From: Acidimicrobiales bacterium
Lineage (GTDB): Bacteria > Actinomycetota > Acidimicrobiia > Acidimicrobiales > Aldehydirespiratoraceae
Assembly: GCA_963667505.2 (NCBI GenBank)
Contig: OY763490.2
Location: 3,245,773 to 3,309,772 of the forward strand
Direction: 5' to 3'
DNA: 64,000 nt
Each line of letters opens with the position of its first letter. Position 1 is the stretch's first letter. Shown in pieces: positions 699 through 42,427 of the stretch. The notes under the pieces were generated by a model. That model made no database searches and was not told where the DNA came from. It saw only the letters and a list, made by a program, of their open reading frames with translations. A program made the position numbers and the translations under genes.

Positions 699-760
699 CG
701 GCGCAGCACCGCGGTCCGGCCTGGCGGGATCCCAGCGGTGTGCCGGAACGGTTCCGGCCC

Positions 761-1530: not shown

Positions 1531-1592
1531 GGCGACATCGGTTGATCACCGGGACGTCTCGGGCGACAGCAAGAGCAACAGGAGGCGAAGGA

Positions 1593-2588: not shown

Positions 2589-2620
2589 GACGGAGCCGAC
2601 TGGCTTGCGATGCGCTCAGA

Positions 2621-3520
2621 TCAGAGATGGGTCTCGAACCAGTCTGCACACAGGACTGCGGCGTCGCCTCGTCGTCGCTGGTCCTTGTAGATCGTCTGGT
2701 GGGTTGACTTGCGGATGATCTCGAGCCGCTTGTCGCGGCAGGGGATAGCGTGAAAGGCATCGAGAGCAAGATCCCAGTGGGTGTGGTCATCGCCTTCGGC
2801 CAACACCACAAGGGTAGCGCACCTGTCGATTCGCTCGGCGTACGGGCGGACGTTGTACTCCAGCAGCCACTCGGTGGAGCGTGTAGTCGCCTTGCCGACG
2901 TAGTTCGGCCCTTCGTGGACGAGCTCGCGGAACATGTCGGCGCTGGTCGGAAACGGCCATGTGGCCAAGCCTTCGGGTTCTTGGGGATTGTGGTCGAGGT
3001 AGCCGGGCCGGCTGCCGCTGAACTGAGCCGAGCGGTCGGTTTCGACGGCTCTGAGCAGCTCGCGGAAAGAGATCGTGCCGTGCGCCAATCGCAGATTCTC
3101 GTAGCCGTTGATCACTGGCACGACGGAACTGGCGGCCTTGACTCGCCGGTCGGTGGCAGCCAACTGGAGGACATGTCCGCCGCTGTAGGAGATTCCCCAT
3201 ACACCGATGCGTTCGGGATCGACACCATCGATCTGCTGAGCGAATGAGATGGCGTTCTTGTAGTCCTCGATCTGGTCCCACGGATTGATCCGCTGTCGTG
3301 GCTCGCCTTCGGACTCTCCAAGGCAGCGATAGTCGAATACCAGCGCCGCCATGTTCCGCCTGTTGAATTCCCGGGCGAACGACGGTTGCACGATCTCTTT
3401 GACGTAGCACCATCCGCCCCCCTGCACGACTATGGGAATGGCGGCTGCGTCGACACCTTCAGGCAGGTAGAGATCTGCTGAGATCTTCAAGCCGTCACTA
3501 CGAAACGTGACGCGTTCCAT
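2621..3520 (-). CDS. alpha/beta hydrolase (dienelactone-hydrolase-like)
   Basis: 299 aa. Nucleophile elbow GVWGISYSGGH. Last gene of the co-directional minus-strand cluster. Confidence 0.7.
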   Translation of the reverse strand: MERVTFRSDGLKISADLYLPEGVDAAAIPIVVQGGGWCYVKEIVQPSFAREFNRRNMAALVFDYRCLGESEGEPRQRINPWDQIEDYKNAISFAQQIDGVDPERIGVWGISYSGGHVLQLAATDRRVKAASSVVPVINGYENLRLAHGTISFRELLRAVETDRSAQFSGSRPGYLDHNPQEPEGLATWPFPTSADMFRELVHEGPNYVGKATTRSTEWLLEYNVRPYAERIDRCATLVVLAEGDDHTHWDLALDAFHAIPCRDKRLEIIRKSTHQTIYKDQRRRGDAAVLCADWFETHL

Positions 3521-3588
3521 TGTTGCACCCCCGTCTCCAGCCAGCCTCTGGGGCTGGTGCTTCGTGTAATGGGCTCACAGTCAGTCTC

Positions 3589-4506
3589 TTAGCAGAACGT
3601 TTCCACAAGGCGGTTGCGCTTCGCGAGGCGGACTGCTTCGGTCATCGTTCTGAAGTGAAGGCCCGGACGGTCGGCTGTCTGCCGCAGCACGCGTTCAACC
3701 ATCTTCAACACATGAGCTCTGCCCGTCACCTGCGGGTGCATGGTGATGTTCACCACGCCGTTGGGCTCGTGCTCCAAGGCGTACTCGATGTGGTCGAGCC
3801 AGTCCCCGCCGATGGCCTCGGTGGATCCGTATCCCGGCCGCAACGGCTCCCACACGAACGTGAACGGAGGGAAGTCGTCCAGACTCCAGCTGACCGGAAC
3901 CTCCACGATGGACGTAGGCGTGCCGAACGAGTAGCTGCCGTCCTCGTTGAGTCGGTCGCCGTCGCGCAGCCAGTACATCCGCAGGTCGTGGGCCATGAGG
4001 CTGCTGTCGTACTGGAACCCGTAGTCGGCCAGCAGCCGCGGCGAATGGGCATTGAGATTCCAGGAGGGTGAGCGGTAGCCGACCGGGGATTGACCCGTGA
4101 GGCGCTCGATGGCGTCCATGCCCTGCTCCAAGTACCGGGTCTCGGTGGCTCTGTCGAGACCCTCGAGAGGCTCATGGGCGTAGCCGTGGTGCTGGACCTC
4201 GTGGCCGGCCTCGACGATCCTGGAGCACACCTCGGGGAAGGTGTCAATCGTGTGGCCTGGCACGAACCAGGTGCTCGTGATGTCGAAGTCTCGTAGGAGC
4301 CTCAGCACACGATCGGCTCCGACTCGGGCGCCGAACTCACCGCGCGACAGGGTTCCGGGCGCCGTCGTGCGCATCATCGTGAGCCAGATGCACAGCGCGT
4401 CGAAGTCGAACGTAAGCAGGACCGACAAACCCGGAGCCTCAGGCTCGCTGGGCCGCGGTGGGTTGCTGGTGCGCTGAGTCTCGCGGGGCCTCTGTGGGTC
4501 GCTCAC
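3589..4506 (-). CDS. polysaccharide deacetylase (NodB homology) family protein
   Basis: Motifs LLTFDFDALC...TWFVPGHT...HEVQHHGYAHE. GTG at 4506 overlaps the upstream permease stop (GTGA). The longer 382-aa ORF upstream of this is off-target Arg/Pro-rich sequence. Confidence 0.7.
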   Translation of the reverse strand: MSDPQRPRETQRTSNPPRPSEPEAPGLSVLLTFDFDALCIWLTMMRTTAPGTLSRGEFGARVGADRVLRLLRDFDITSTWFVPGHTIDTFPEVCSRIVEAGHEVQHHGYAHEPLEGLDRATETRYLEQGMDAIERLTGQSPVGYRSPSWNLNAHSPRLLADYGFQYDSSLMAHDLRMYWLRDGDRLNEDGSYSFGTPTSIVEVPVSWSLDDFPPFTFVWEPLRPGYGSTEAIGGDWLDHIEYALEHEPNGVVNITMHPQVTGRAHVLKMVERVLRQTADRPGLHFRTMTEAVRLAKRNRLVETFC

Positions 4507-5393
4507 GTTCGGGCTCCTGTGGGTTGCTGATGTCTGAAGGCTTTTCGCACGCTTCCGATGTACATCAAGAGCAGGATCAGGGAAACGGTGATGATCAGGA
4601 CGCCGAGCGCGAAGATCGAGGGGGTGATCCTCAGCTGTGCAGCCGAAACCAGCATGAGAGGCAGGGTTCGATCGGCGCCCATTATGAAGATGGAGTGCGC
4701 ATACTCGTCGAAGCTCAGCATGAACGCGAAGAGACATGATCCTATTATTGCCGGCTTCATGACGGGAACAGTGACCGTGAAGAACGTCTCAAGCTGGGAC
4801 GCGCCCAACGTGTGGGCGGCTTCCTCGATGCGCCGATCGAAGCGGTTGAACAACACCATGAAGAGCAGGAACGAGAAGGGCATGGTCCAGACAACATGGG
4901 CGATGATCCCGGTGGTGAACAGCCCAGCAGGGATGCCCAGCTCCGAGAAGATGGTGACAAGGCCCAAGCTCACCGCCAGCCCCGGAGTCACGATCCCGAG
5001 CAGGATCGCGTAGGTCGCCAAGCGAGCGCCGCGGAACTTGGACCGCATGGCCTGCGCCGCGGCCATCGCGACAATCGTCGAGATCACCGCGGTAGCGACC
5101 GCCAGCTTCAGGGAGTTGCCGATGCTCGCCTTGAAGTCGAAGACGGCCTGCCCGAGATAGTCGGGGTGATCGGTGATGACGGACAGGTCGGCGAGGGACC
5201 GGTACCAGAGAGTGCCCGGATCCGTGATCGGGAACGTCGCTCCACCCTGGGGGCCTTGAAATGACAGCAGCAATATCAGCAGGATAGGTATATAGATGAA
5301 ACCCAGCACGATCAGCACCGGGATCGCCAGCGAGATCCGGGCCCACAGGCCGAAACGGACCGGCGGTGCAGGTCGAACCGCGCTTGAGCGCAT
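4503..5393 (-). CDS. ABC transporter permease (PotC/spermidine-putrescine type)
   Basis: 296 aa, multi-TM, with an EAA-like loop (RIEEAAHTLGASQLETFFTVTVP). Abuts the upstream permease stop. Confidence 0.8.
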   Translation of the reverse strand: MRSSAVRPAPPVRFGLWARISLAIPVLIVLGFIYIPILLILLLSFQGPQGGATFPITDPGTLWYRSLADLSVITDHPDYLGQAVFDFKASIGNSLKLAVATAVISTIVAMAAAQAMRSKFRGARLATYAILLGIVTPGLAVSLGLVTIFSELGIPAGLFTTGIIAHVVWTMPFSFLLFMVLFNRFDRRIEEAAHTLGASQLETFFTVTVPVMKPAIIGSCLFAFMLSFDEYAHSIFIMGADRTLPLMLVSAAQLRITPSIFALGVLIITVSLILLLMYIGSVRKAFRHQQPTGART

Positions 5394-6209
5394 TCAGAGG
5401 TCCCTCTCGAGTTGGGCGAAACGCAGCAGCCCCACGGCGATGGACAACGTGATCACGACGAGGGCGACCGCCTGAGCGCTCGCTTGCGGCCACAGCAGCA
5501 GTTCAGCCCTTCGCCAGACGGTTCCAGCCAGGAGTGGCGAAAGGCCCCCGCCGATGATTCGCTCGGTGGCGAAGTCCGACAGAATCATGACTGACACGAA
5601 GATCCAGCCGACGATTATGCCTGGTCGGGCCAACGGCAACTCGACGGTCCAGAACGTCTTGAAGGGGGACGCGCCCAAGTTCTGGGCTGCCCGCAGCAGG
5701 TCCTCGTCGAGTTGGCGGAGCTTGAAGAAGGTAGGGCCGATGATGAAGGCAACATAGAGAAAGACGAGTGCGGTCATCATCGAGGGCGATGTGTACAAGA
5801 ACAAGTCAGATGGTTCATCCAAGATGCTGGCCTCCGTCAAGGCGGTGTTGAGAAGACCGGCTCGGCCGAAGAGCGGGATCCAGGTGATCATTCGGATCAC
5901 ATAGCTGACGATGAACGGAACAAAGAGGAGAAAGATCAGAGCAGTGCGAACCCATTCAACCGTCACGACCCGGGCGGCGAAGTATGCGACAAGGACTCCG
6001 AAGACAGTAGAGATGGCGAGAACGGTCGCCAGAACCTGCAGCGTCCAGCGAACGGTCGCCCAGAACGTGCCGCTTGTGAGGATGTTGGCGTAGTTCGAGG
6101 CGGTGAGATCGGAGCGCATCCCCACCGATGCGCCCGTCCAGAAGCTGAACACCACGATTGCGCCCAGGGGGACGGCGAGGCCGATGGCGACCCACAGCAG
6201 GGCAGGCAC
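5394..6209 (-). CDS. ABC transporter permease (PotB type)
   Basis: 271 aa, multi-TM, with an EAA loop (LLRAAQNLGASPFKTFWTVELP). GTG start. Confidence 0.8.
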   Translation of the reverse strand: MPALLWVAIGLAVPLGAIVVFSFWTGASVGMRSDLTASNYANILTSGTFWATVRWTLQVLATVLAISTVFGVLVAYFAARVVTVEWVRTALIFLLFVPFIVSYVIRMITWIPLFGRAGLLNTALTEASILDEPSDLFLYTSPSMMTALVFLYVAFIIGPTFFKLRQLDEDLLRAAQNLGASPFKTFWTVELPLARPGIIVGWIFVSVMILSDFATERIIGGGLSPLLAGTVWRRAELLLWPQASAQAVALVVITLSIAVGLLRFAQLERDL

Positions 6210-6329
6210 AGCCAGCCGAGCCTGGCCGGTGACCAGACTCAGCCGAGCGGTGCGATCAGCGGTGTCAGCGGATGGCTTCAGATGCTCGTGGCCCCCTCGG
6301 ATCCGCCTGCGGGAGGTGGACGGCTCGGT

Positions 6330-7574
6330 CTAGGACGCGACGAAGTCCTGCCACCTCGACTCCAGGTACTCCGACTCGTCCGGGAACTGCCACCACCAGG
6401 CCGCCTTGGATGCGATGTCATCGACGGAGCCGCGGTCGCGGCCGCCGCCGTTGTACCAGTAGTCCCAGGCGTTGACTCCCGGCTCGGGCGAGTCGGCGCC
6501 CTCCAGCGCGGCCTGGGCCACCGACGGCGTCGGCGTCATGTAGCCCTGGTTGGCGACCGCGGCCGGCGCGAAGCCCTCGTGCCAGAAGTTGGCGTAGGCG
6601 ACGGCTGCGTCGTAGTTGGGGGACTCGGCTGACAGCACGACACCGTGGAACCACATGTTGTAGCCCTCCTTGATGGTGCCGTACACAGCCGGCTTGCCTC
6701 GGGCCGCCACCTCTCGGACGATCGGCTCCCAGGCGTTCATCAAGGACACCTCCCCGGTGTCGAGGATCTCGATCGCCTGCCCGAAGTCGTCCCACAGGAG
6801 CCGGAACTGTCCGTCCCGCTTACGCTCGATGAGGAAGTCGATGGCGAAGTCGATGTCGTTGCGGCTGGGGTTGCCGATAGTGCCCTCGGTCTGGTACTCG
6901 CCGGTCCCGACGAATGTGGCCAGCACTTCCATCGGAGCGCGCAGCGAGGCGTTGAACAGCGCCACCTTGCCCGCGTACTTGGGGTCCCACAGCGCGGCGT
7001 AGGAGTCGAGCTCCTCATCGATCAGGTCTGTGCGGTAGCCGATGGAGTCGCCGTTCCAAACCGTCGGAACAACCCACACCTCGTCGAGAGCGCCTGAGTC
7101 GCGGGCCTCCTGGGTGTAGATCTGGGTGAACGGGTGGCCGTCGCCATCCTGGCCGGCCGCGCCCGGTACCCGGAACACCTCCAACAGAGCGTCCCAGTGC
7201 GTGATGTCGGCCACCTTGATGGGCTGCAGCGTCCCGGCCTCCACCAGCGGCGCGATCTGGGCGCCTTGGGCTTCCATGACGTCCCACTGGTTCTGATAGC
7301 CGCCCTGGATCCACTGGGGCACCATCTCGCCGAACCCGACCTGGGTGCCGGTGGCGGGGATGCCCGTCTCTGCCGTGTACTGCGCCAGCACGGGGTCGAG
7401 CACGGTGGTGCCGATGCCCATGGTCCTCAGCTCGAGCTGCTGCTCGACCCTGCTGCCGCTGCACGCCGCCAGGAACGCCGGCATGGCGCCAATCCCGAGG
7501 GTCGCGTACCCGGTGTTGGCGAGGAATCGCCTCCGGGTCATGCCTCGAGGTTCTGGGTTGGGTTGGTGGTCCAT
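6330..7574 (-). CDS. ABC transporter substrate-binding lipoprotein (PotD/PotF-like), Tat-type signal
   Basis: N-terminus MTRRRFLANTGYATLGIGAMPAFLAACSG (twin-Arg plus lipobox). GGGAGG lies 4 nt upstream of the ATG. Confidence 0.8.
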   Translation of the reverse strand: MDHQPNPEPRGMTRRRFLANTGYATLGIGAMPAFLAACSGSRVEQQLELRTMGIGTTVLDPVLAQYTAETGIPATGTQVGFGEMVPQWIQGGYQNQWDVMEAQGAQIAPLVEAGTLQPIKVADITHWDALLEVFRVPGAAGQDGDGHPFTQIYTQEARDSGALDEVWVVPTVWNGDSIGYRTDLIDEELDSYAALWDPKYAGKVALFNASLRAPMEVLATFVGTGEYQTEGTIGNPSRNDIDFAIDFLIERKRDGQFRLLWDDFGQAIEILDTGEVSLMNAWEPIVREVAARGKPAVYGTIKEGYNMWFHGVVLSAESPNYDAAVAYANFWHEGFAPAAVANQGYMTPTPSVAQAALEGADSPEPGVNAWDYWYNGGGRDRGSVDDIASKAAWWWQFPDESEYLESRWQDFVAS

Positions 7575-7596
7575 GCTGCCTCCCGTTGGGTTGTTG

Positions 7597-8712
7597 CTAT
7601 TGCATGAGATATGCGTGATCTATGTCCCAGCCGACGAGCACGTCGTCGCCGAGTCGAAGCTGGCCGATGCCGTTTCCAGACTCGCCGCGGCTCAGGGACT
7701 CGGGTTCCTCCATGCGGTACTCCGTGCCGTCGGCAGCCTTGACCAGGAAGGTCACCGTGGTGCCCGAGTACCGAGCCCCGGCGACTGTTCCCTTGAAGTG
7801 GTTGGGCGTCTGCGCGGGAGTCACCCGCCTCAACGCGTCAGCCCGCACGATCAGAGTCGCAGGCTTCCCTGAGAGGACCGGGTGGCCGTCGGATCCCTTG
7901 GCGAGGAACTCGCCGAGCGTCGTGCGGATCCTGTGCAAGCCGCCGTCGGCGACCTCGGTCGGCGTGGCGTCCATCAGATTGTTCTGGCCGACGAAGCTGG
8001 CCACGAAGCGGGTCTTGGGCCGGGCGAACACCTCAGCCGGTGTGCCGACCTGCTCGAGTTGGCCATCGTGCAGCACGAGTATGCGGTCGGCCATCGCGAT
8101 GGCCTCGCTCTGGTCGTGGGTCACATGGATGAAGCTGCAGGCCAGCTCCTTCTGCAGCCGCTTGAGTTCTGCTTGCATCTCGATGCGGAGGGCGGCGTCG
8201 AGCGCTCCGAGAGCCTCGTCGAGCAGAACGACCCTGGGCTCAGTGGCGATTGCCCTGGCCAGCGCGACGCGCTGCTGCTGCCCCCCGCTGAGCTGCTCGG
8301 CCCGGCGGTCGCCGAGTCCCTCCAGGCCGACCAGGCTCAGCAGGTCGTCGGCTCGGCTGCGTCGCTCGGGCTTGGAGACCCCTCGCATGCGAAGGCCGTA
8401 GGCGACGTTGTCCCGGATGTTCAGGTGCGGGAACAGGGCGTAGCTCTGGAACACCATGGGCGTCCCCCGCCGGTGGGGAGGAACCGCCGCGGCGTCCTCG
8501 CCGAAGAGCTTGACGGTTCCGCCGGTCGGAGCGTCGAGCCCGGCGATCATGCGGACGGTGGTCGTCTTGCCCGATCCGCTCGGCCCGATGATGGAGAAGA
8601 ACTCCCCTGCGCGCACGGTGAAGGACACCGAGTCCAGCGCCAGAGTGTCACCGAAGAGGCGGGACACCTCCTCGAACTCGACCGCAGAATCGAGAGCTTC
8701 GGATTCCCTCAC
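7597..8712 (-). CDS. ABC transporter ATP-binding protein (PotA-like, with C-terminal TOBE-like domain)
   Basis: Walker A GPSGSGKTT, signature LSGGQQQRVALARA, Walker B VVLLDEALGALD. Confidence 0.9.
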   Translation of the reverse strand: MRESEALDSAVEFEEVSRLFGDTLALDSVSFTVRAGEFFSIIGPSGSGKTTTVRMIAGLDAPTGGTVKLFGEDAAAVPPHRRGTPMVFQSYALFPHLNIRDNVAYGLRMRGVSKPERRSRADDLLSLVGLEGLGDRRAEQLSGGQQQRVALARAIATEPRVVLLDEALGALDAALRIEMQAELKRLQKELACSFIHVTHDQSEAIAMADRILVLHDGQLEQVGTPAEVFARPKTRFVASFVGQNNLMDATPTEVADGGLHRIRTTLGEFLAKGSDGHPVLSGKPATLIVRADALRRVTPAQTPNHFKGTVAGARYSGTTVTFLVKAADGTEYRMEEPESLSRGESGNGIGQLRLGDDVLVGWDIDHAYLMQ

Positions 8713-8884
8713 GCCGCCCCTTCGCTCGCTGTGTCGACTGGGTCGCTACGTCATCGGTGCTCGGGGGTTTGGGGGTGGGATGACAAGCGATTCGTCGGCC
8801 GTCCGCCGGGTGGCCCGAGATGTGAGGCTAGTTCCCGCAGATTGGGCCATGCAAACCGCGCCTAGCGTCCCGCAGCGGCTGGCG

Positions 8885-12676: not shown

Positions 12677-12704
12677 CCGCTCTCATCGACTGGATCGGTC
12701 ATAC

Positions 12705-14759
12705 TCACCCGCTCTGAGCCACGCTGACCACGATGTTGCCGAGGTCGTCGATGGCGGTGCTGTCGTCGGTGCCCCTGACCACCACGGTGGAGTCGGGCTC
12801 CTCGATGATCAAGGCGCCCGGCCGGGCCCAGCCCACGCTCAGGCCGCTCCGGTCGAACACGGGGGCCTCCACGACCTGGCCGGAGGAGGAGAACAGGGCC
12901 CGGCGCCCCTTGGCCTCGGCGCCGCCCTCGGGCTCGGGCGGGGCGAACTCCGGCTTCTCGACGGCCGCGATCACGGCGAGGCGCAGGCTGACGAACTCCA
13001 GCGCCTCGTCCTCCTTGTGGTGCCCGAACAGCCGAAGGTGCTCGGCGTGGAAGTTGTCGACGACGCGCCGCACGGTGGCCTCGGTGACCGGCCCCGGCGG
13101 GAAGGCGACGTTGACCTCGAAGTTCTGGCCGCTGTAGCGCACATCGGCGGTGAACTGCATAAGCGGTGCGGCGACGACCCCCATCCGGTCCATGGCCGCC
13201 TCGCCCTCGGCCACGAGCTCCTCCGACAGCGCCGTCAGCGTGGCCAGATCGAGTTCCTCCATGCGGCGCAGATAGCTGCGGACGAAGTCGAGGCGTATGT
13301 CGGCGCACAGGCCGCCGAACGCGCAGAACGCGCCCGGAAATCGCGGCACCAGCACCGTGCCCACACCGAGTTCTCGAGCCAGCTCGACTGCGGAGACGGG
13401 TCCGGCGCCGCCGTAGGCGATCATGGCGTAGTCCCGGGGGTCGTATCCCCGCTGGGTGGACACGATGTGCATCGCGCCGACCATGGACGCCTCCGCAACC
13501 CGCACGATCCCGAGAGCAGCCTCGGTCGCGGTCATGCCCACCCGGTCGCCGATCTGGTCGCTGATCGCCTGCCCGGCCGCCTCCGCGTCGAGCCGGACCC
13601 GACCACCGAGGAAATAGGCCGGGTCGATGAGGCCGATGGTCACGTAGGCGTCGGTGAGGGTGGGCAGCGCCCCTCCTTTGCCGTAGCACACCGGGCCCGG
13701 CTCCGACCCGGCCGAGTCCGGTCCGACCTGAATCAGGCCGCCCGGATCGACCCGGGCGATGCTGCCGCCTCCGGCCCCGATCGACTTGACGTCGACCAGC
13801 GGGATCTTGAAGGGGATGCCCCATTGGATGAACCCCTCCGTGGTGCGCGACGGGACTCCGCCCTCGATCAGGCTCACCTCGAAGCTGGTGCCGCCCACGT
13901 CTATGGCCAGGAGATTCGGATAGCCGCTCTGCACCCCGAGGTGGGCGGCCCCGATGACGCCGCCCGCGGGGCCCGACTGCAGGGTGCGCACCGGTGTCGC
14001 CCTGGCTTCGGCCACGGGCACGATCCCGCCGCCGGAGCTGATCACGGTCACGCCGCATTCCATGCCCCCGGAGGCCAGTCGCCGTTCCAGGTTCTCGAAG
14101 TACGCGCCCATCACCGGCTTGACGTACGCGTCGATCACCACCGTGCTGGAGCGCTCGTACTCCCTGATCTCGGGGAGGATCTCGCTGGAGATGGAGACCG
14201 GAACGTCAGGCCAGACCCGGGTGATGATGTCGCGGGCCTGACGCTCGTGAACCGGGCTCATGAAGGAGAACAGGAAGCACACCGCGATCGACTCCACGCC
14301 GGCGTCTCTCATCTCGGTGACCGTGGCCGCCAGGGCATCGGTGTCGAGCGGCGTGACCACCCGACCCCGGTAATCCACTCGCTCGGTCGCCTCGAAGCGC
14401 AGTCGTCGGGGCACTAGCGGCACCGGGCTCGCCCATTGGAGGTCGTAGTGGCGCTCCCGGTTGATCCGCATGATCTCCAGGGTGTCGCGGAACCCGGCCG
14501 TGGATATCAGGCCGACCCGGCCCCCTTTGCGCTCGACCACCGCGTTGGTGGCGGTGGTGGTGCCGTGCACGAACTGGCCGACGTCGGAGAGGGCGACCCC
14601 GCCCTCGGCCAGCACCTCCAGGACGCCGTCGGTGCGATCGGCGGGCGTGGTGAACGACTTGGACATCGACAGTTCGCCGGTAGTGCTGTCGAAGGCGACC
14701 AGATCGGTGAACGTGCCGCCGATGTCGACGCCGATCCGCAGCGGTCCGGGCGGGGTCAC
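12705..14759 (-). CDS. hydantoinase A/oxoprolinase family protein
   Basis: 684 aa. Motifs RIGVDIGGTFTDLV and LAIDVGGTSFEV (ASKHA-fold ATPase motifs). GTG start overlaps the upstream stop (GTGA). Confidence 0.85.
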   Translation of the reverse strand: MTPPGPLRIGVDIGGTFTDLVAFDSTTGELSMSKSFTTPADRTDGVLEVLAEGGVALSDVGQFVHGTTTATNAVVERKGGRVGLISTAGFRDTLEIMRINRERHYDLQWASPVPLVPRRLRFEATERVDYRGRVVTPLDTDALAATVTEMRDAGVESIAVCFLFSFMSPVHERQARDIITRVWPDVPVSISSEILPEIREYERSSTVVIDAYVKPVMGAYFENLERRLASGGMECGVTVISSGGGIVPVAEARATPVRTLQSGPAGGVIGAAHLGVQSGYPNLLAIDVGGTSFEVSLIEGGVPSRTTEGFIQWGIPFKIPLVDVKSIGAGGGSIARVDPGGLIQVGPDSAGSEPGPVCYGKGGALPTLTDAYVTIGLIDPAYFLGGRVRLDAEAAGQAISDQIGDRVGMTATEAALGIVRVAEASMVGAMHIVSTQRGYDPRDYAMIAYGGAGPVSAVELARELGVGTVLVPRFPGAFCAFGGLCADIRLDFVRSYLRRMEELDLATLTALSEELVAEGEAAMDRMGVVAAPLMQFTADVRYSGQNFEVNVAFPPGPVTEATVRRVVDNFHAEHLRLFGHHKEDEALEFVSLRLAVIAAVEKPEFAPPEPEGGAEAKGRRALFSSSGQVVEAPVFDRSGLSVGWARPGALIIEEPDSTVVVRGTDDSTAIDDLGNIVVSVAQSG

Positions 14760-15835
14760 GAATCAGCGCCTGCGCCGACGGCCGCGCTCAGCCCGCCCAG
14801 CCAGGCCCGGGCGGCCGGCAGCCGGCTGACCGGCAAGATTCCCGGCGGGGCGTCGATCACGGTCGGGATGCTGTTGACCAGATGGGCGGACGTCGCGTAG
14901 AGGGCGTCGTTGCCGGGGCGGAAACGGATGCGGATGGGATGCTCGCCTTCGATGTCGATGGAGTCGCCGACCTCGTGCCCGGCCTCGGCGGGCCGCAGGT
15001 GCAGCAGCAGGTCGAGGGTCATGAACTCCGCTCCGTTGACACGGCCCCTCGCGGTGTGCAGGAAGCCCTCCGTCGAGCCGGCCGGAACAGCTCCGTACAG
15101 CGTGGGCGCGTCTTGGGTGGCCACGTAGGGGACGAACTCCTGGGTGACCGAGCTGTCGAGCCTCAGTCCGAGCCCCTCGACGACCATGCGTATGGACTCC
15201 GGGAATCCGACGTGACCGGCGATGGAGCCGTCGGCGTGGCCCGCGTCGAACTCGTCCAGCGTGTAGCCGATCCCGAGCCGCCGGTGGATGTCCCGGCCGA
15301 ACCCGGACACGTCGACCACTCTGCGCCCGGTGATCCTGCCGATGTCCCAGCACAGGCCGCTGGCCGCCAGGACCAGGAAGTCGAAGATGAACCCGGGGTT
15401 GACCCCCGTCCCCAGAACCGAGGCGCCGCCCCGCTTGGCCGCTTCGTCTATGCGGTCCCATTCGGCCTCCCGGCCCGGCTCTCGATAGGCGAGCTCCTCG
15501 CACGCCGACACGAAGTTCACGCCCGCCGTCACACAGGCGACTACATCGTCGGCCACTTGATGCAGGAACGAGCGCGACCCGTCGATGACCGCCACCGGTG
15601 CCGTGGCCAAGAGCTCTGACAGCTCGCCGAACACGGGGATCGGCTTGTCCGAGGCCACCCCGGCAATCTCGGCCAAATCCCCGCCGATTGCATCACGGTC
15701 CGCGCTGCACGCCCCGACGAGTTGGTAGTCGTGACGATGGGTCAACAGCAGCCGGGCAGCGTGGCGGCCGACTCCCCCCGATCCGATTATCCCGATGGGA
15801 AGCACCCCGGTCCCCTCTCGTCGAGCCCCGGGCAT
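14756..15835 (-). CDS. DapB-like NAD(P)H-dependent amine dehydrogenase family protein
   Basis: Rossmann IGIIGSGGVGRH, then VLGTGVNPGFIFDFL, typical of the 2,4-diaminopentanoate-dehydrogenase/AmDH family. Candidate starts at 15844, 15835 or 15805. The first 76 aa of the tracked ORF are Pro/Ser/Arg-rich and unlikely to be coding. Confidence 0.6.
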   Translation of the reverse strand: MPGARREGTGVLPIGIIGSGGVGRHAARLLLTHRHDYQLVGACSADRDAIGGDLAEIAGVASDKPIPVFGELSELLATAPVAVIDGSRSFLHQVADDVVACVTAGVNFVSACEELAYREPGREAEWDRIDEAAKRGGASVLGTGVNPGFIFDFLVLAASGLCWDIGRITGRRVVDVSGFGRDIHRRLGIGYTLDEFDAGHADGSIAGHVGFPESIRMVVEGLGLRLDSSVTQEFVPYVATQDAPTLYGAVPAGSTEGFLHTARGRVNGAEFMTLDLLLHLRPAEAGHEVGDSIDIEGEHPIRIRFRPGNDALYATSAHLVNSIPTVIDAPPGILPVSRLPAARAWLGGLSAAVGAGADS

Positions 15836-15920
15836 GATACGCATCCGACTTCGGGGCCTTCCAAGGGCAGGACGGCGGGCCGGGCTCGGCGACCCCTGGC
15901 TGCGAGGCGCGTCGGCTGTA

Positions 15921-17216
15921 CTAGGTGCCGAAGTCGTCGGGGACGTGGACGGGCATGTCGGACTGGGCCCATTCCTTGATCGTGTCGGCCACTTGGGCTG
16001 CCTCCTCGGCGGGCATCGCGGCCACGATGCTGCGGCCGAGTGCCTCGAACACGGGAATCTCGTCGTCTTCAAGGGCTCGCATCGGCACTTTGCGGGCCAT
16101 GGCCGCGTCGAGGGCGGGGATCAGCCGGTCGAGCTTGGCCCGCTCGCGGTCGGCCTCGCCCTCAGCGAACTCGCCCATCACGTCGGCCGCGAACAGCTCC
16201 AGGGTCTCGCAGATGTGGTCGTGGCGGTTGTTGCCGCCCTGCTGGATGAACACCACTTGGTCGACACCGGCCTCGGCGAAGCCCCGCAGATGGTCGCGCA
16301 CCTGCTCGGGGGTACCGATGCCACTCTGCTCTCCCCGGTCCTCGATGGTGTGCCGGGCGGCGAGATAGTCAGCCCAGATGTCGGTCCGGCCCGGCTTGTG
16401 CTCGCCGAAGATGTAGTGGTGGCCGAGTCCGTAGCCGAAGAACTGGAAGCCGTCGAGGCCCCGGCGCCTGGCCTCGTCGGCGTCGGGATGCACCGACAGG
16501 CCGGTGACCATGGCGATGTTGGGGTTGACGACGTGGCCGATGGGCACGCACTCGGTCTCCAGGATCCGGTAGTAGTCCTGCACCCAGGCGGCCGCGTCAC
16601 CGGGATCGACGAACGAGAAAGTGAGGGCGCCGATGCCCAGCCGGGCGGCCAGCTTGATCGTCTCCCGGCTGGAGCAGGCCACCCACAGAGGCGGATGGGG
16701 CTTCTGCACCGGCTTGGGCACCACATTGCGGCACGGCATCGAGAAGTAGTCGCCGTCGTAACCCGGATACGGGTCCATGGCCATCATGTTGCAGCACTGC
16801 TCGACCGCTTCCTGCCAGGCAGGGCGCTTATGGTCGGCGTCCACGCCGAAGCCGCCCAGCTCCAGGATCGACGACGACTCGCCGGTGCCGAAGTCCACCC
16901 GCCCGCCCGACACCAGGTCGAGAGTAGAGATCCGCTCGGCCACCCGGGCCGGGTGGTTGTAGTCGGGTGGCATCAGCACGATGCCGTGGCCGAGCCGGAT
17001 CCGCTTGGTGCGCTGGCTGCAGGCGGCCAGGAACACCTCGGGCGCGGAGGAATGCGAGTACTCCTCCAGGAAGTGGTGCTCAACCTCCCAGGCGTAGTCG
17101 AAGCCGAGCCGGTCGGCCAGCTCCACCTGCTCCAACGCCTCGTTGAAGAGCCTCTGCTCGTCGCCCTCGCCCCAGGGCCGAGGCAACTGATGCTCATAGA
17201 AGATCCCGAACTTCAC
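15921..17216 (-). CDS. LLM-class flavin-dependent monooxygenase
   Basis: 431 aa. Motifs MKFGIFYEHQLPRPW...FDYAWEVEHHFLEEYSHSSAPEVFLAA. Confidence 0.8.
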   Translation of the reverse strand: MKFGIFYEHQLPRPWGEGDEQRLFNEALEQVELADRLGFDYAWEVEHHFLEEYSHSSAPEVFLAACSQRTKRIRLGHGIVLMPPDYNHPARVAERISTLDLVSGGRVDFGTGESSSILELGGFGVDADHKRPAWQEAVEQCCNMMAMDPYPGYDGDYFSMPCRNVVPKPVQKPHPPLWVACSSRETIKLAARLGIGALTFSFVDPGDAAAWVQDYYRILETECVPIGHVVNPNIAMVTGLSVHPDADEARRRGLDGFQFFGYGLGHHYIFGEHKPGRTDIWADYLAARHTIEDRGEQSGIGTPEQVRDHLRGFAEAGVDQVVFIQQGGNNRHDHICETLELFAADVMGEFAEGEADRERAKLDRLIPALDAAMARKVPMRALEDDEIPVFEALGRSIVAAMPAEEAAQVADTIKEWAQSDMPVHVPDDFGT

Positions 17217-17227
17217 GGAACGCGACT

Positions 17228-18643
17228 CTATGAGCCACCGGGATCAATCGCAGCCTCGGCTTCCCGCGCGCGGCGGCGGGGGTAGATGAGGCTGAACAGG
17301 ATTAGGTTGCAGAGGAAGCCTCCGGCGCACACCATCCACACGGTGCGGTAGGCGGCCAGCTGGGCGGCGGGGCTGTCGGACTGGCCGATCATGGCGAACG
17401 CCACCGCGATGGCGAGGGCTACGGATAGCTGGAAGAAGGTGGTGCGGCCGGCGGCGGCCATGGCGTAGCGCTCCGGGGGGATGTCCCGCAGCGCCGCGCC
17501 CACAAGTTGCGAGAAGCCGGTCCCGGCCGCCAGCCCCACGAGCGCGGTGGCCACCAGCAGCTTGGCCAGCGACGGCGCGGTGGTGATCGAGAGAATCAGC
17601 CAGAGCACGCCTGCCGCGCCGCAGGTCGATCCGACGATGAGGATGGGAGCGTTGCCGATCCGGTCGGCCAGGCGCCCGGCCTGTGGGGCGACGAGGAACG
17701 ACACGACCGGGCCCACCGCGTAGGCCAGGCCCGTCTTGATGATCGACCAGCCCCACACGTCCTGGATGAACGACGGCAACGGCACCAGCAGCGCGAAGAA
17801 ACCCAATGCGAAGAACAGCGACCCGAGATTGCCCAGCACGAAAGAGCGGATCCGCATGAGTGCCAGGTCGAACAGGGGGGCCGGGTGTCGCCTGCTGCGG
17901 ATCGTGAACACCGCGATCATGGCGGCGCCGGCCGCGAACGAGCCGAGCGTGGGAGCGGTTCCCCAGCCCCAGGCCTCGCCCTGCACGATCCCGAGGATGA
18001 TGGTGCCCACCCCGAACGACGCCAGTGGCACTCCGATGACATCAACACGGCCGCCGGTGCGGCCCGCCTTGCTCTCGGCCAGCGCCCTGGCGCCGAGCAG
18101 CAGCGAGGCCGCCGCGACGGGAACATTCACGTAGAACACGGCCCGCCAACTGAAGGCCTCGATCAGCAGAGCCCCGAGAGTGGGCCCCAGAGCGGCCGCC
18201 AGCCCGCCGGTGGCGCCCCATACTCCGATGGCGGTCTGGTGGCGCCCGCGGGGGAATGCGGTGAGCAGCAGTGCGAGTCCGGCGGGGTATTGCATGGATC
18301 CGCCGACGGCCTGCAAAGCTCTCGCCGCGATGAGCACGCCAATGCTCGTCGAGGCCCCGGCGACTATCGATCCCGCCGCGAAAAGCACCAGGCCGAACAG
18401 GAATATCCGGCGACGTCCGTAGCGGTCGGCCAGCCAGCCCGACAGCAACAGCAGCGCGGCCACCACGATCGAGTAGGCGTTCACCACCCACGACAGCGCC
18501 GCCGGAGTGGCACCCAGCGAGGCTCGGATCTTCGGCAGCGCCAGCGAGATGATGGTGAGCTCCATGGCCACCATGAACACCGCCACCGAGACCACGGCTA
18601 GCGTCAGCCAGGCCGACCGGGGGACGCGTTCCATTATCGGCAA
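17228..18643 (-). CDS. MFS transporter (DHA2/EmrB-like, about 14 TMS)
   Basis: 471 aa, hydrophobic throughout. Motif A-like GWLADRYGRRRIF. Confidence 0.8.
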   Translation of the reverse strand: MPIMERVPRSAWLTLAVVSVAVFMVAMELTIISLALPKIRASLGATPAALSWVVNAYSIVVAALLLLSGWLADRYGRRRIFLFGLVLFAAGSIVAGASTSIGVLIAARALQAVGGSMQYPAGLALLLTAFPRGRHQTAIGVWGATGGLAAALGPTLGALLIEAFSWRAVFYVNVPVAAASLLLGARALAESKAGRTGGRVDVIGVPLASFGVGTIILGIVQGEAWGWGTAPTLGSFAAGAAMIAVFTIRSRRHPAPLFDLALMRIRSFVLGNLGSLFFALGFFALLVPLPSFIQDVWGWSIIKTGLAYAVGPVVSFLVAPQAGRLADRIGNAPILIVGSTCGAAGVLWLILSITTAPSLAKLLVATALVGLAAGTGFSQLVGAALRDIPPERYAMAAAGRTTFFQLSVALAIAVAFAMIGQSDSPAAQLAAYRTVWMVCAGGFLCNLILFSLIYPRRRAREAEAAIDPGGS

Positions 18644-18744
18644 CTCTACGACGGCACGTCGTCCTCGAATGTCCGAGCGGACGGGCAGCCCTGCCGCAAC
18701 TCCACGACTGCCTGAAGGCTGTTCAAGAGCGAGACACGCGATGA

Positions 18745-18772
18745 TCTACTCTTAGGAAAGAGTCTCTACTCT
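18745..18772. promoter_or_regulatory. candidate operator in the MFS/gmaS divergent intergenic region
   Basis: Direct repeat TCTACTCT at 18745-18752 and 18765-18772 (20-bp spacing). It flanks the inverted repeat ACTCTT-AGGA-AAGAGT (18748-18763) in an AT-rich patch about 120 bp upstream of gmaS. Confidence 0.3.
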
Positions 18773-18890
18773 GGTTAGACATAAGGGCGGAGCTTGTAGT
18801 AGGGTCCGGCCGAGCGGGCACGTTGGCGACGCGTGCGCCCCTAGCGCTACGGTTTCGCTCGCACTCACAAGCAGCCCGATAGGGGGAGAA

Positions 18891-42410: not shown

Positions 42411-42427
42411 CCGTCTGGGCCTCGTCG

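What the first reader, a model, noticed from the sequence alone, without database searches (positions are those of the whole stretch)
2621..18643. 16-kb co-directional cluster combining HyuA/HyuB (ATP-dependent lactamase/carboxylase family), an AmDH-like amine dehydrogenase, an LLM monooxygenase, E1 alpha/beta and a polyamine-type ABC importer
Fourteen minus-strand genes are packed with overlaps or short gaps. GTGA or ATGA overlaps occur at 14756-14759, 10889-10892 and 4503-4506, and E1 alpha/beta overlap by 11 nt.

Gene order: MFS, LLM monooxygenase, DapB-like amine dehydrogenase, hydantoinase A, hydantoinase B, E1 alpha, E1 beta, PotA-like ATPase, PotD-like binding protein, two permeases, NodB deacetylase, alpha/beta hydrolase.

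HyuAB homologues open lactams or hydantoins, or carboxylate ketones (oxoprolinase, N-methylhydantoinase, caprolactamase, acetone/acetophenone carboxylase). Pairing them with an amine dehydrogenase, a TPP-dependent E1 and a polyamine-like importer does not match any pathway I can name.

It may be a route for a cyclic amide or a diamine-derived compound.
Basis: inference. Interest (0 to 1): 0.6.

Follow-up and report, generated by a model that had tools for sequence, protein, structure and literature searches.

The report
Conserved lactamase–amine dehydrogenase–E1 catabolic module
Inside this 16-kb gene row sits a six-gene set (ring-opening ATP-dependent amidase, an amine dehydrogenase of unknown natural role, a thiamine-dependent E1 pair and a serine hydrolase) that travels together in distant bacteria and probably breaks down a small cyclic amide by a route not yet described.

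Summary
The genes, coordinates and overlaps are real, but there are 13 genes, not 14, and three spacers are 115-172 nt long.

The stretch is composite. Only six genes form a conserved unit: the Ord-like native amine dehydrogenase (AmDH), HyuA, HyuB, E1 alpha, E1 beta and an S15/DLH-type serine hydrolase.
- Among 13 non-redundant loci with an AmDH 45-80% identical, HyuA, E1a and E1b each occur in 12, HyuB in 10 and the hydrolase in 9.
- Among 111 loci with more distant AmDH/Ord homologues, none has any of them.
- Carriers include Actinomadura, Kribbella, Mycolicibacterium, Dormibacteraceae and marine Acidimicrobiales.
- The three cultured actinomycetes add a lipoyl E2, and most loci add an IclR regulator.

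The MFS, the 431-aa LLM, NodB and the Pot-fold importer occur only in close relatives. Elsewhere the transporter is Liv- or Opp-type. The binding protein lacks PotD's polyamine-binding acidic residues.

HyuAB is lactamase-type, not carboxylase-type, and lies outside the caprolactamase and N-methylhydantoinase clades.

Best reading (about 0.5): an ATP-dependent cyclic-amide catabolic route. The ring is opened to an amine, the amine is oxidised to a carbonyl, and E1/E2 cleaves that to acyl-CoA. The substrate is unknown.

I found no description of this combination.

The parts
1542..2588 (+). F420-dependent LLM-class oxidoreductase (Rv2161c/TIGR03619 family).
   Evidence: Pfam Bac_luciferase. TIGR03619 scores 170.9 bits against a cut-off of 166.9. 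A 60% homologue sits next to IclR-AmDH in L091, and weaker ones occur in L009, L099, L174 and L176.
2621..3520 (-). Core gene: serine alpha/beta hydrolase (Peptidase_S15 / CocE-NonD / DLH-like), 299 aa, with an intact catalytic triad.
   Evidence: Pfam and NCBIfam. Orthologues at 47-66% identity occur in L090, L091, L094, L099, L102 and L174-176, with invariant WGISYSGGH, AEGDDHTHWD and His274. The AF2 model has pLDDT 83; the best PDB folds are 7qjm esterase, DcsB thioesterase, YcjY and GrgF.
3589..4506 (-). NodB/CE4-family deacylase (HpPgdA-like, distantly PuuE-like). Lineage-specific add-on.
   Evidence: Pfam Polysacc_deac_1. PDB 3qbu at 1.4e-51. No homologue was seen in any module locus with AmDH 45-80% identical; close relatives could not be checked because their loci end within the second permease gene.
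4503..5393 (-). ABC permease 2 (BPD_transp_1). Lineage-specific.
   Evidence: Pfam. Synteny is seen only in L003-L007.
5394..6209 (-). ABC permease 1 (BPD_transp_1). Lineage-specific.
   Evidence: Pfam. Synteny is seen only in L003-L007.
6330..7574 (-). Solute-binding protein with the PotD fold (SBP_bac_8) but without the polyamine-binding acidic residues.
   Evidence: Pfam and no NCBIfam hit. In the PotD alignment W229 and W255 are kept, while D168 becomes A, E171 becomes A and D257 becomes H.
7597..8712 (-). ABC ATPase with a TOBE domain, PotA-like but below the PotA cut-offs.
   Evidence: Pfam. NF006987 scores 333 against 482, and TIGR01187 scores 317 against 356.
8713..8884 (.). 172-nt spacer with blocks conserved in relatives. 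It is a candidate internal promoter or operator for the importer genes.
   Evidence: Alignment with L003, L006 and L007. No Rfam family matches.
8885..9865 (-). Core gene: E1 beta (Transket_pyr + Transketolase_C).
   Evidence: Pfam. PRK09212 scores 313.6 against 321. Present in 12 of 13 module loci.
9855..10892 (-). Core gene: E1 alpha (E1_dh), of the PDH/acetoin type.
   Evidence: Pfam. TIGR03182 scores 254 against 394. In the PDB it is closest to human PDH E1 alpha (138 bits), ahead of BCKDH (80 bits). Present in 12 of 13 module loci.
10889..12676 (-). Core gene: HyuB, the metal-containing hydrolytic subunit of an ATP-dependent lactamase/hydantoinase.
   Evidence: Pfam score 594 bits. [quoted passage not shown] In the tree it sits in a 100/100 clade separate from CapB and N-methylhydantoinase.
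12705..14759 (-). Core gene: HyuA, the ATP-binding subunit.
   Evidence: Pfam Hydant_A_N + Hydantoinase_A + Hydant_A_C. PDB scores are 465 bits to N-methylhydantoinase and 411 to caprolactamase, against 253-278 to the carboxylases.
14756..15805 (-). Core gene: NAD(P)-dependent native amine dehydrogenase (DAP_DH_C) of a distinct Ord-related clade.
   Evidence: Pfam. NF040740 scores 248 against 400. Compared with AmDH4, Glu102, Arg161, Phe168 and His197 are kept, while Asn163 becomes Val and His264 becomes Leu; these are invariant in the 14 clade members aligned.
15921..17216 (-). 431-aa LLM-class flavin oxidoreductase/monooxygenase. Found only in close relatives.
   Evidence: Pfam. All NCBIfam hits are below cut-off. 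Present only in L003-L005 and L007.
17228..18643 (-). MFS transporter. Found only in close relatives, and shares a divergent region with the gmaS/mgsABC-like genes.
   Evidence: Pfam MFS_1. Present only in L003-L005 and L007, and absent from L006.

Best explanation
The stretch is a composite catabolic island built around a conserved six-gene module: AmDH, HyuA, HyuB, E1 alpha, E1 beta and a serine hydrolase.

Proposed mechanism:
1. A small cyclic amide (lactam, hydantoin or diketopiperazine class) is imported. Here the importer is a Pot-fold ABC system that does not look polyamine-specific.
2. HyuAB opens the ring at the cost of ATP and exposes an amino group.
3. The Ord-related amine dehydrogenase oxidatively deaminates that carbon to a carbonyl, using NAD(P)+.
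4. The PDH/acetoin-type E1 alpha/beta cleaves the resulting 2-oxo acid or alpha-hydroxy/alpha-dicarbonyl compound and passes the acyl group to a lipoyl E2, giving acyl-CoA. The E2 and E3 are encoded elsewhere in this genome but inside the module in Actinomadura, Mycolicibacterium and Kribbella.
5. The conserved serine hydrolase performs one further ester, thioester or amide hydrolysis. Its position in the sequence of steps is unknown.

NodB, the F420-type LLM, the 431-aa LLM and the MFS are lineage-specific trimmings.

Shown: gene identities, catalytic residues, co-conservation, lactamase-type placement of HyuAB, and presence of E2 in other carriers.

Inferred: the order of steps, the direction (catabolic), and the substrate class.
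For: Co-conservation is clade-specific.
- In 13 non-redundant loci with AmDH 45-80% identical and at least 6 kb of flank, HyuA occurs in 12, E1a in 12, E1b in 12, HyuB in 10 and ABH in 9.
- In 111 loci with AmDH homologues below 45% identity, none of these occurs.
- Gene order differs between carriers, which argues for selection on co-location rather than inherited synteny.

E2 and regulator.
- An E2 sits in the module in L174, L175 and L176. It carries a lipoyl domain in L174 and L175; in L176 only E3_binding and 2-oxoacid_dh were recorded. This makes E1ab a true dehydrogenase-complex E1.
- An IclR regulator is present in 8 of the 13 loci whose genes I clustered and again in L175 and L176, and an importer is present in most loci. 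This pattern is typical of catabolic operons.

HyuAB is lactamase-type.
- The metal tetrad is conserved.
- Scores to N-methylhydantoinase and caprolactamase far exceed those to acetone and acetophenone carboxylases.

Functional substitution.
- The wider HyuB clade (100/100 support) is habitually next to an amine-removing enzyme. These are a BCAT plus E1ab in L092, class III aminotransferases in L177 and L178, a Kdd-like amine dehydrogenase in L177, and a class IV aminotransferase in L093.

AmDH and hydrolase look active.
- The AmDH keeps the catalytic Glu and the distal Arg but not the residues specific for 2,4-diaminopentanoate.
- The hydrolase triad is invariant.
Against: - No substrate is identified, and nothing here shows activity or co-transcription.
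- The window lacks both the E2 and the IclR gene seen elsewhere.
- Two unrelated HyuAB clades serve the same module, so the ring-opening step may not be the same reaction in all carriers.
- The hydrolase's structural neighbours are esterases and thioesterases rather than amidases, which does not fit neatly into a pure amide pathway.
- The AmDH's Phe168-equivalent and distal Arg suggest a methyl-bearing amine with a remote carboxylate. Oxidising that does not obviously give a 2-oxo acid.
- Spacers of 115-172 nt suggest several transcription units.
Confidence: 0.5

Rival explanations
1. Amine-to-ketone-to-beta-keto-acid route. The AmDH first converts an imported primary amine to a ketone. HyuAB then acts as an ATP-dependent ketone carboxylase (acetone or acetophenone carboxylase type), and the beta-keto acid enters CoA metabolism.
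For: - HyuAB belongs to the same superfamily as Acx and Apc.
- Native AmDHs are known to interconvert simple ketones and amines (PMC11164908).
- L090 and L095 carry 3-oxoacid-CoA-transferase-like genes nearby.
- A small Cys4 protein follows HyuB in several relatives. Like the small gamma subunit of acetone carboxylase (own knowledge), it would be a small extra subunit; no homology between them was tested.
Against: - Scores to the carboxylases are far lower than to the lactamases: HyuA 253-278 against 411-465 bits, and HyuB 87-135 against 287-297 bits.
- Apc equivalog scores are 140-294 against cut-offs of 1250-1500.
- There is no third subunit gene in the window.
- A beta-keto acid is not an E1 substrate, so the invariably linked E1ab/E2 would be left unexplained.
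Confidence: 0.1
2. Creatinine / N-methylhydantoin route tied to the neighbouring methylamine genes.
1. HyuAB is an N-methylhydantoinase.
2. A hydrolase (ABH or NodB) decarbamoylates N-carbamoylsarcosine.
3. The AmDH splits sarcosine into glyoxylate and methylamine.
4. The divergent gmaS/mgsABC-like cluster assimilates the methylamine.
For: - The best PDB match of both HyuA and HyuB is an N-methylhydantoinase.
- HyuB shares a pocket Glu38 with it that CapB lacks.
- gmaS/mgsABC-like genes lie divergently next to the cluster and stay there in L003-L005 and L007.
Against: - Identity to the N-methylhydantoinase is modest and equals that to caprolactamase. In the tree the window's clade excludes it.
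- The gmaS neighbourhood is absent from L006, L090, L091, L095 and from all soil and actinomycete carriers.
- No creatinine deaminase or isochorismatase-type carbamoylsarcosine amidase is present.
- The role of E1ab/E2 on glyoxylate would be unusual.
Confidence: 0.07
3. Lower branch of an N-heterocycle (pyridone, pyridine-carboxylate or pyrrole-carboxylate) pathway.
1. A molybdenum hydroxylase and ene-reductases make a saturated carboxy-lactam, such as 6-oxopipecolate or a 5-oxoproline analogue.
2. HyuAB opens it to an alpha-amino dicarboxylate.
3. The AmDH makes the 2-oxo acid.
4. E1/E2 makes the acyl-CoA.
For: - In Mycolicibacterium sp. CBM1 the module is followed by a FadH/OYE-type flavoprotein, a 2Fe-2S subunit and a molybdenum-hydroxylase large subunit, and is preceded by an OYE.
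- L091 has the same 721-aa FadH/OYE type, and L090 has an OYE.
- This would give a true 2-oxo acid for E1 and a distal carboxylate for the conserved Arg.
Against: - The reductases and the hydroxylase are absent from the window and from most carriers.
- The E1 is of the heterotetrameric PDH/acetoin type rather than the 2-oxoglutarate/2-oxoadipate type.
- The hydrolase has no role in this scheme.
Confidence: 0.1
4. No shared pathway. The genes are neighbours by chance or by island mosaicism in a genome very rich in HyuAB and E1 paralogues.
For: - The genome has about 7 HyuB, 10 HyuA and 7 E1 pairs.
- The cluster's 3' genes have lower GC3, 0.75-0.80 against 0.86-0.93.
- The peripheral genes are not co-conserved.
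Against: The six core genes recur together, in different orders, in Actinomycetota and Dormibacterota, and only with this AmDH clade: 12/13 against 0/111.
Confidence: 0.04

Closest known systems
Caprolactam catabolic genes of Pseudomonas jessenii (CapAB caprolactamase plus omega-transaminase; PMC6061476, PMC8453981). Related lactam routes, from my own knowledge: OplBA for valerolactam, NmpAB for N-methylpyrrolidone, IaaCE and SktIJ for oxindoles.
   Same: - A two-subunit ATP-dependent HyuA/HyuB-type lactamase opens a stable ring.
- A neighbouring enzyme then removes the freed amino group.
- The HyuB metal tetrad is conserved.
   Different: - Scores are 530 and 345 bits against equivalog cut-offs of 1000.
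- CapB's vicinal Cys pair and hydrophobic pocket residues are replaced by Glu38, Asn60 and Phe136.
- The window's HyuB falls in a separate clade.
- Deamination is by an NAD(P)-dependent amine dehydrogenase, not a transaminase.
- An E1ab(/E2) and a serine hydrolase are obligatory partners.
2,4-diaminopentanoate dehydrogenase (Ord) of the ornithine fermentation cluster, and its structural homologue AmDH4 (PDB 6g1m). This is group G2 of the native AmDH family (PMC11164908).
   Same: - Same fold and family (PF19328).
- The catalytic Glu, Arg161, Phe168 and His197 equivalents are conserved.
- It is the closest solved relative, at E 1e-46 to 1e-57.
   Different: - NF040740 scores 248 against 400.
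- Asn163 becomes Val and His264 becomes Leu, invariantly in the clade.
- Its neighbours are HyuAB, E1ab and a hydrolase, a combination seen in none of 111 loci of more distant AmDH/Ord homologues.
Heterotetrameric E1 of pyruvate / acetoin dehydrogenase complexes (E1 alpha2 beta2 with lipoyl E2 and E3).
   Same: - Same domain set.
- The best NCBIfam and PDB matches are acetyl-transferring PDH E1.
- A canonical E2 is encoded in the module in three cultured carriers.
   Different: - Scores are below the PDH equivalog cut-offs.
- There is no E2 or E3 in this window. Lipoyl proteins lie only at other E1 loci.
- The substrate is unknown and presumably not pyruvate itself.
Hydantoin-utilisation genes: ATP-dependent HyuAB with a carbamoylase, as in Pseudomonas sp. 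NS671, and the N-methylhydantoinase step of creatinine degradation (own knowledge).
   Same: - ATP-dependent HyuAB plus a second hydrolase.
- The best PDB hit is an N-methylhydantoinase.
- The related locus L092 pairs HyuAB with a CN_hydrolase, BCAT and E1ab.
   Different: - No M20, CN_hydrolase or isochorismatase-type carbamoylase, and no racemase.
- The second hydrolase is an esterase-like alpha/beta hydrolase.
- AmDH and E1 steps are not part of the known hydantoin routes.
PotABCD / PotFGHI polyamine importers.
   Same: One ATPase with a TOBE domain, two permeases and one PotD-fold binding protein.
   Different: - The ATPase scores below the PotA cut-offs.
- The binding protein matches PotD at only E about 1e-4.
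- It lacks Asp168, Glu171 and Asp257, though it keeps Trp229 and Trp255.

Membership tests
ATP-dependent lactamase/hydantoinase (HyuA/HyuB, oxoprolinase superfamily) | HyuA with Hydant_A_N + Hydantoinase_A (+ Hydant_A_C), and a separate HyuB with Hydantoinase_B | tested here: met
   Pfam E-values are 4e-85, 3e-52 and 4e-178.
ATP-dependent lactamase/hydantoinase (HyuA/HyuB, oxoprolinase superfamily) | [quoted passage not shown] | tested here: met
   All four residues align and are invariant in 12 sequences.
ATP-dependent lactamase/hydantoinase (HyuA/HyuB, oxoprolinase superfamily) | ATP-dependent hydrolysis of a cyclic amide | not testable with these tools
   This needs an enzyme assay.
Caprolactamase CapAB (NCBIfam NF050156 / NF050157 equivalogs) | Score at or above the equivalog cut-off (1000 bits), plus the vicinal Cys410-Cys411 pair of CapB | tested here: not met
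   Scores are 530 and 345 bits. The Cys pair is replaced by Asn-Pro. CapB lies outside the window's 100/100 clade.
Acetone / acetophenone carboxylase | Equivalog-level similarity and additional small subunit(s) | tested here: not met
   Apc models score 140-294 bits against cut-offs of 1250-1500. PDB scores to carboxylases are 87-278 bits, against 287-465 to lactamases. No extra subunit ORF lies between HyuB and E1a.
2,4-diaminopentanoate dehydrogenase (Ord, NF040740) | Equivalog score of at least 400 | tested here: not met
   The score is 248 bits.
2,4-diaminopentanoate dehydrogenase (Ord, NF040740) | Substrate-binding Asn163 and His264 of AmDH4 (roles from my own recollection of Mayol et al. 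2019) | tested here: not met
   These positions are Val174 and Leu276, invariant in the clade.
Native amine dehydrogenase family (PF19328 DAP_DH_C; PMC11164908) | DAP_DH_C domain after a Rossmann domain, with a catalytic Glu at the AmDH4 Glu102 position | tested here: met
   PF19328 E-value is 4.6e-43. Glu113 aligns with Glu102 and is invariant.
2-oxo acid / acetoin dehydrogenase complex E1 (alpha2 beta2 type) | E1_dh alpha subunit plus Transket_pyr/Transketolase_C beta subunit | tested here: met
   Pfam.
2-oxo acid / acetoin dehydrogenase complex E1 (alpha2 beta2 type) | Cognate lipoyl E2 encoded with the E1 | tested here: not met
   There is none in 1542-18643, and lipoyl domains occur only at other loci of the genome. 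The feature is met in L174 and L175. In L176 the adjacent E2 showed only E3_binding and 2-oxoacid_dh, with no lipoyl domain.
Pyruvate dehydrogenase E1 (TIGR03182 / PRK09212) | Score at or above the curated cut-offs | tested here: not met
   Scores are 254 against 394 (alpha) and 313.6 against 321 (beta).
PotABCD polyamine importer | Binding protein with the acidic residues that hold polyamine nitrogens (PotD Asp168, Glu171, Asp257; own knowledge of Sugiyama et al. 1996) | tested here: not met
   The residues are Ala, Ala and His in a low-scoring alignment anchored by conserved Trp229 and Trp255.
PotABCD polyamine importer | PotA equivalog or subfamily score | tested here: not met
   Scores are 333 against 482 and 317 against 356.
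Carbohydrate esterase 4 / NodB deacetylase | Polysacc_deac_1 domain | tested here: met
   Pfam E-value is 2.6e-18. PDB 3qbu matches at 1.4e-51. The catalytic motifs were not inspected.

The most novel reading that the evidence does not exclude
This module gives a clade of 'native amine dehydrogenases' its first physiological setting outside ornithine fermentation. In this reading the AmDH is the deaminating step of a previously undescribed ATP-dependent pathway. That pathway mineralises a stable cyclic amide to acyl-CoA through a dedicated E1/E2. Candidate substrates are a 5-substituted hydantoin, a 2,5-diketopiperazine or a methyl-substituted gamma-lactam. The genes for diketopiperazine breakdown in particular were still unidentified in the one study I found (PMC3852281).
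Probability: 0.3. Interest if true: 0.75.

Novelty: new variant of a known kind. Interest (0 to 1): 0.6.

Why it matters
Native amine dehydrogenases are sought-after biocatalysts whose natural roles are largely unknown. The largest survey found no consensual genomic context outside the Ord group (PMC11164908 and its Supplementary Fig. 4). Here one clade has a strict, cross-phylum partnership with an ATP-dependent lactamase, an E1/E2 and a hydrolase.

This turns 'what is the natural substrate?' into a testable question in cultured strains: Actinomadura chibensis, Kribbella sancticallisti and Mycolicibacterium sp. CBM1.

It would also add a new route for stable cyclic amides. These matter for nylon-monomer and lactam biodegradation and for the turnover of natural hydantoins and diketopiperazines.

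It offers matched enzyme sets (lactamase plus AmDH) for biocatalysis.

Tried and rejected
- **Promoter, terminator and Rfam scans:** the promoter and terminator scan gave nothing above shuffles. The Rfam scan of 1-20000 found no family.
- **Genome contigs and metagenome scans with the AmDH alignment:** Only 4 and 12 clade members were recovered. The Ord loci served as the negative control.
- **Plasmid collection:** only distant homologues, at no more than 37% identity.
- **Whole-genome sampling:** 0 of 200 Acidimicrobiia and 0 of 400 Actinomycetota genomes carry the clade's AmDH. This shows rarity but gave no new loci.
- **Earlier scan notes:** searching by words and by sequence returned nothing.
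- **Literature:** searches for HyuAB with E1, with Ord or with diketopiperazines found no description of the module.
- **ABH as an AcoC-like E2 substitute:** rejected. There is no hit to the AcoC model, and canonical E2 genes coexist with the ABH in L174-L176.
- **ABH as a clear-cut amidase or peptidase:** weakened, because its structural neighbours are esterases and thioesterases.
- **'One 13-gene operon':** rejected in favour of a conserved core plus add-ons.
- **AmDH ASMC group (G1-G5):** could not be assigned, because the paper's P1-P21 position map is not in the text held.

Full report
**Observation**

The window belongs to a 4.48-Mb Acidimicrobiales assembly. The nearest named relative is Candidatus Aldehydirespirator sp..

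Between 2621 and 18643 the minus strand carries 13 genes, not 14. Pfam and NCBIfam assign them as follows:
- an MFS transporter;
- a 431-aa LLM-class flavoenzyme;
- a DAP_DH_C amine dehydrogenase;
- HyuA and HyuB;
- E1 alpha and E1 beta;
- a PotA-like ATPase;
- an SBP_bac_8 binding protein;
- two permeases;
- a NodB/CE4 enzyme;
- an S15/DLH-like alpha/beta hydrolase.

The three 4-nt overlaps and the 11-nt E1 overlap are exactly as described. The AmDH starts at GTG 15805, behind a GAGAGGGGA ribosome-binding site. This gives 349 aa, as in its relatives.

Packing is not uniform. Spacers of 172, 120 and 115 nt interrupt the row. The 172-nt spacer before the ATPase gene keeps conserved blocks in three relatives. 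I therefore expect several co-directional transcription units.

**What is conserved**

Relatives with an AmDH 84-90% identical keep the gene order from the AmDH through the importer genes (L003-L007). L003-L005 and L007 also keep the MFS and the 431-aa LLM; L006 lacks them.

Further away, only part of it survives. I combined metagenome and genome loci fetched through the AmDH and through HyuB. Every AmDH at 45-80% identity with enough flank sits with HyuA, HyuB, E1 alpha, E1 beta and the same alpha/beta hydrolase.

| AmDH identity class | Loci | HyuA | E1a | E1b | HyuB | Hydrolase |
|---|---|---|---|---|---|---|
| 45-80%, at least 6 kb flank, non-redundant | 13 | 12 | 12 | 12 | 10 | 9 |
| below 45% (mostly true Ord genes of anaerobes) | 111 | 0 | 0 | 0 | 0 | 0 |

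Misses in the first row are mostly at contig ends or just beyond the 10-kb range.

The order of the genes differs between carriers:
- AmDH-HyuA-HyuB-E1a-E1b in marine contigs;
- E1a-E1b-hydrolase-AmDH-HyuA-HyuB, or AmDH-E1a-E1b-HyuA-HyuB, in soil contigs and actinomycetes.

Carriers include a Dormibacteraceae MAG (L009), Actinomadura chibensis, Mycolicibacterium sp. CBM1 and Kribbella sancticallisti.

An IclR regulator accompanies the module in eight of the thirteen loci whose genes I clustered and again in L175 and L176. An F420-type LLM of the Rv2161c family recurs too.

The transporter changes with the host. It is Pot-fold here, Opp-type in L090, and Liv-type in L091, L009, L099, L174 and L176.

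The MFS, the 431-aa LLM and the Pot-fold importer are confined to the close relatives. NodB has no counterpart in the 13 distant module loci either, but whether the close relatives keep it could not be checked, because their loci end within the second permease gene.

The AmDH clade is rare. It was found in none of 200 other Acidimicrobiia genomes and none of 400 sampled Actinomycetota genomes.

**The parts**

*HyuAB.*
- HyuA and HyuB score far better against the solved N-methylhydantoinase (465 and 297 bits) and caprolactamase (411 and 287) than against acetone and acetophenone carboxylases (253-278 and 87-135).
- They stay far below the caprolactamase equivalog cut-offs.
- The HyuB Asp-His-Asp-His metal site described for CapB (PMC8453981) is intact. 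CapB's vicinal cysteines and several hydrophobic pocket residues are replaced: Glu38, as in the N-methylhydantoinase, plus Asn60 and Phe136.
- In a maximum-likelihood tree the window's HyuB lies in a 100/100 clade with eight metagenomic proteins. CapB and the N-methylhydantoinase both lie outside it.
- The HyuB of the soil and actinomycete modules forms a different, long-branched clade nearer CapB. Two HyuAB lineages have therefore been recruited to one AmDH/E1/hydrolase set.

*AmDH.*
- Its closest solved relatives are 2,4-diaminopentanoate-dehydrogenase-type enzymes (7xdu and AmDH4 6g1m).
- It keeps the catalytic Glu and the equivalents of AmDH4 Arg161, Phe168 and His197.
- It has Val and Leu at Asn163 and His264. 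All of these are invariant in the 14 aligned clade members.
- It scores 248 against 400 for the Ord equivalog.

*E1.*
- It is of the PDH/acetoin kind.
- In the three cultured carriers an E2 gene lies inside the module. It carries a lipoyl domain in L174 and L175; the L176 gene showed only the E3-binding and catalytic domains. The E1 is therefore a real dehydrogenase-complex component.
- In this genome lipoyl proteins are found only at other E1 loci, one of them 30 kb away in the window.

*Hydrolase.*
- It is the best conserved core protein, with a mean column identity of 69% and an invariant Ser-Asp-His triad.
- Its AlphaFold model (pLDDT 83) is closest to a Chloroflexus esterase, the DcsB thioesterase, YcjY, PA2218 and GrgF.

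*Binding protein.*
- It aligns with PotD only at E about 1e-4.
- It keeps Trp229 and Trp255 but has Ala, Ala and His at Asp168, Glu171 and Asp257.
- 'Polyamine-type' therefore describes the fold, not the ligand.

**How it most likely works**

The wider HyuB clade is regularly next to an enzyme that removes an amino group:
- a BCAT-type aminotransferase, together with E1ab, a CN_hydrolase and RidA, in L092;
- class III aminotransferases in L177 and L178;
- a Kdd-like amine dehydrogenase in L177;
- a class IV aminotransferase in L093.

This is the logic of the known lactam routes: the ring is opened, then the amine is removed. It also shows an aminotransferase standing where the AmDH stands here.

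I therefore read the module in four steps:
1. ATP-dependent ring opening by HyuAB.
2. NAD(P)-dependent oxidative deamination of the freed amine by the AmDH.
3. Thiamine-dependent cleavage of the resulting 2-oxo or alpha-hydroxy/dicarbonyl compound by E1ab, with transfer to E2 and CoA.
4. One extra hydrolysis by the serine hydrolase.

The gene functions and the association are shown. The order of steps, the direction and the substrate are inferred.

Two clues about the substrate pull in different directions:
- Loci that contain E1 also contain a second hydrolase: the alpha/beta hydrolase here and a CN_hydrolase in L092. The simple HyuAB-aminotransferase loci do not. This suggests a ring with two hydrolysable bonds, such as a hydantoin, dihydropyrimidine or diketopiperazine, which would yield an alpha-amino acid and then a 2-oxo acid.
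- The AmDH's Ord-like pocket (Phe at the methyl site, a distal Arg) and the esterase-like fold of the hydrolase fit better with a methyl-substituted gamma-lactam. Its keto product would carry a neighbouring oxygen function and would be cleaved like acetoin.

I cannot decide between these with sequence data alone.

**Rivals**

- A ketone-carboxylase role for HyuAB is disfavoured by the similarity scores, the missing third subunit and the unexplained E1.
- A creatinine / N-methylhydantoin / sarcosine route feeding the adjacent gmaS/mgsABC-like genes is attractive locally. However, that neighbourhood is absent from L006 and from all distant carriers.
- A lower branch of an N-heterocycle pathway is suggested by the molybdenum hydroxylase and FadH/OYE genes beside the module in Mycolicibacterium, L091 and L090. 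Those genes are not general.
- Chance adjacency is excluded for the core genes by the 12/13 against 0/111 contrast.

**Comparison with what is known, and novelty**

Each enzyme family is known, and lactamase-plus-deaminating-enzyme clusters are known for caprolactam and other lactams (PMC6061476, PMC8453981). I found no description of the obligatory combination of HyuAB, an Ord-like AmDH, E1ab(/E2) and a serine hydrolase.

The survey of native amine dehydrogenases states that context analysis gave no clue to function, and that no consensual context exists outside the Ord group.

I rate this a new variant of a known kind: an undescribed catabolic pathway built from known families. It has moderate to high interest because cultured carriers make it directly testable.

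Noticed in passing
window 8713-8884: The 172-nt spacer between E1 beta and the ABC ATPase gene keeps blocks in relatives L003, L006 and L007. The blocks include GCGCGGTTTGCATGG..ATCTGCGGGAACTA, TTCGCTTGTCATC and GCGATGACGTAGCGA; the last two contain the inverse hexamers GTCATC and GATGAC. This is a possible operator or promoter of the importer genes.
   Followed up: partly
L090:11812-11997, L091:11751-11993, L092:11802-11990, L177:11801-12007, L178:11102-11284: A small (60-80 aa) Cys4 protein with the pattern CxxCG...(F/Y)CSxxC directly follows HyuB in five loci of the window's HyuB clade. It is absent from the window and its close relatives, where E1 alpha overlaps the HyuB stop. It may be a third, zinc-binding subunit or chaperone of this HyuAB clade.
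   Followed up: partly
L001 / L008 (Acidimicrobiales chromosome OZ241331), about 10000-16700: A relative with AmDH 74-75% identical appears to carry a decaying copy of the module. The AmDH 3' end and the HyuA 5' end overlap (HyuA called at 547 aa). E1 beta is replaced by a fibronectin-type-III gene, and there is no importer.
   Followed up: partly
window 40374-42676: A second thiamine system lies here: a fused E1 alpha-beta protein (678 aa) followed by a free-standing 82-aa lipoyl-domain protein, next to a sugar-type ABC importer with another NodB-family gene. A free lipoyl carrier could in principle also serve the orphan E1ab at 8885-10892.
   Followed up: partly
window 2621-6209: The hydrolase and both permease genes have lower GC3 (0.75-0.80) than the rest of the cluster (0.86-0.93). 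The hydrolase is closer to L091 (66%) than to L090 (50%), whereas the AmDH shows the opposite (50% against 59%). This points to a mosaic history of the module.
   Followed up: partly
genome contig C16:32237-36597: A second contig holds copies of the 431-aa LLM (94% identity) and the gmaS-like gene (97% identity). This is probably strain heterogeneity in the assembly, whose estimated contamination is 7%.
   Followed up: no
genome C1:3309970-3313729 (starts about 200 nt after the window's end) and six further loci: The 4.5-Mb genome carries about 10 HyuA and 7 HyuB paralogues and 7 E1 alpha/beta pairs. One HyuAB pair begins immediately beyond the window. This is an unusual expansion of ATP-dependent lactamase/carboxylase genes.
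   Followed up: no
L009:12887-13852 and L100:7116-7958: A Cyclase-family (kynurenine-formamidase / isatin-hydrolase type) gene accompanies the module in two soil-type loci. It occupies the place taken by NodB here and by a CN_hydrolase in L092. A small-amide deacylase may be a recurring optional step.
   Followed up: partly
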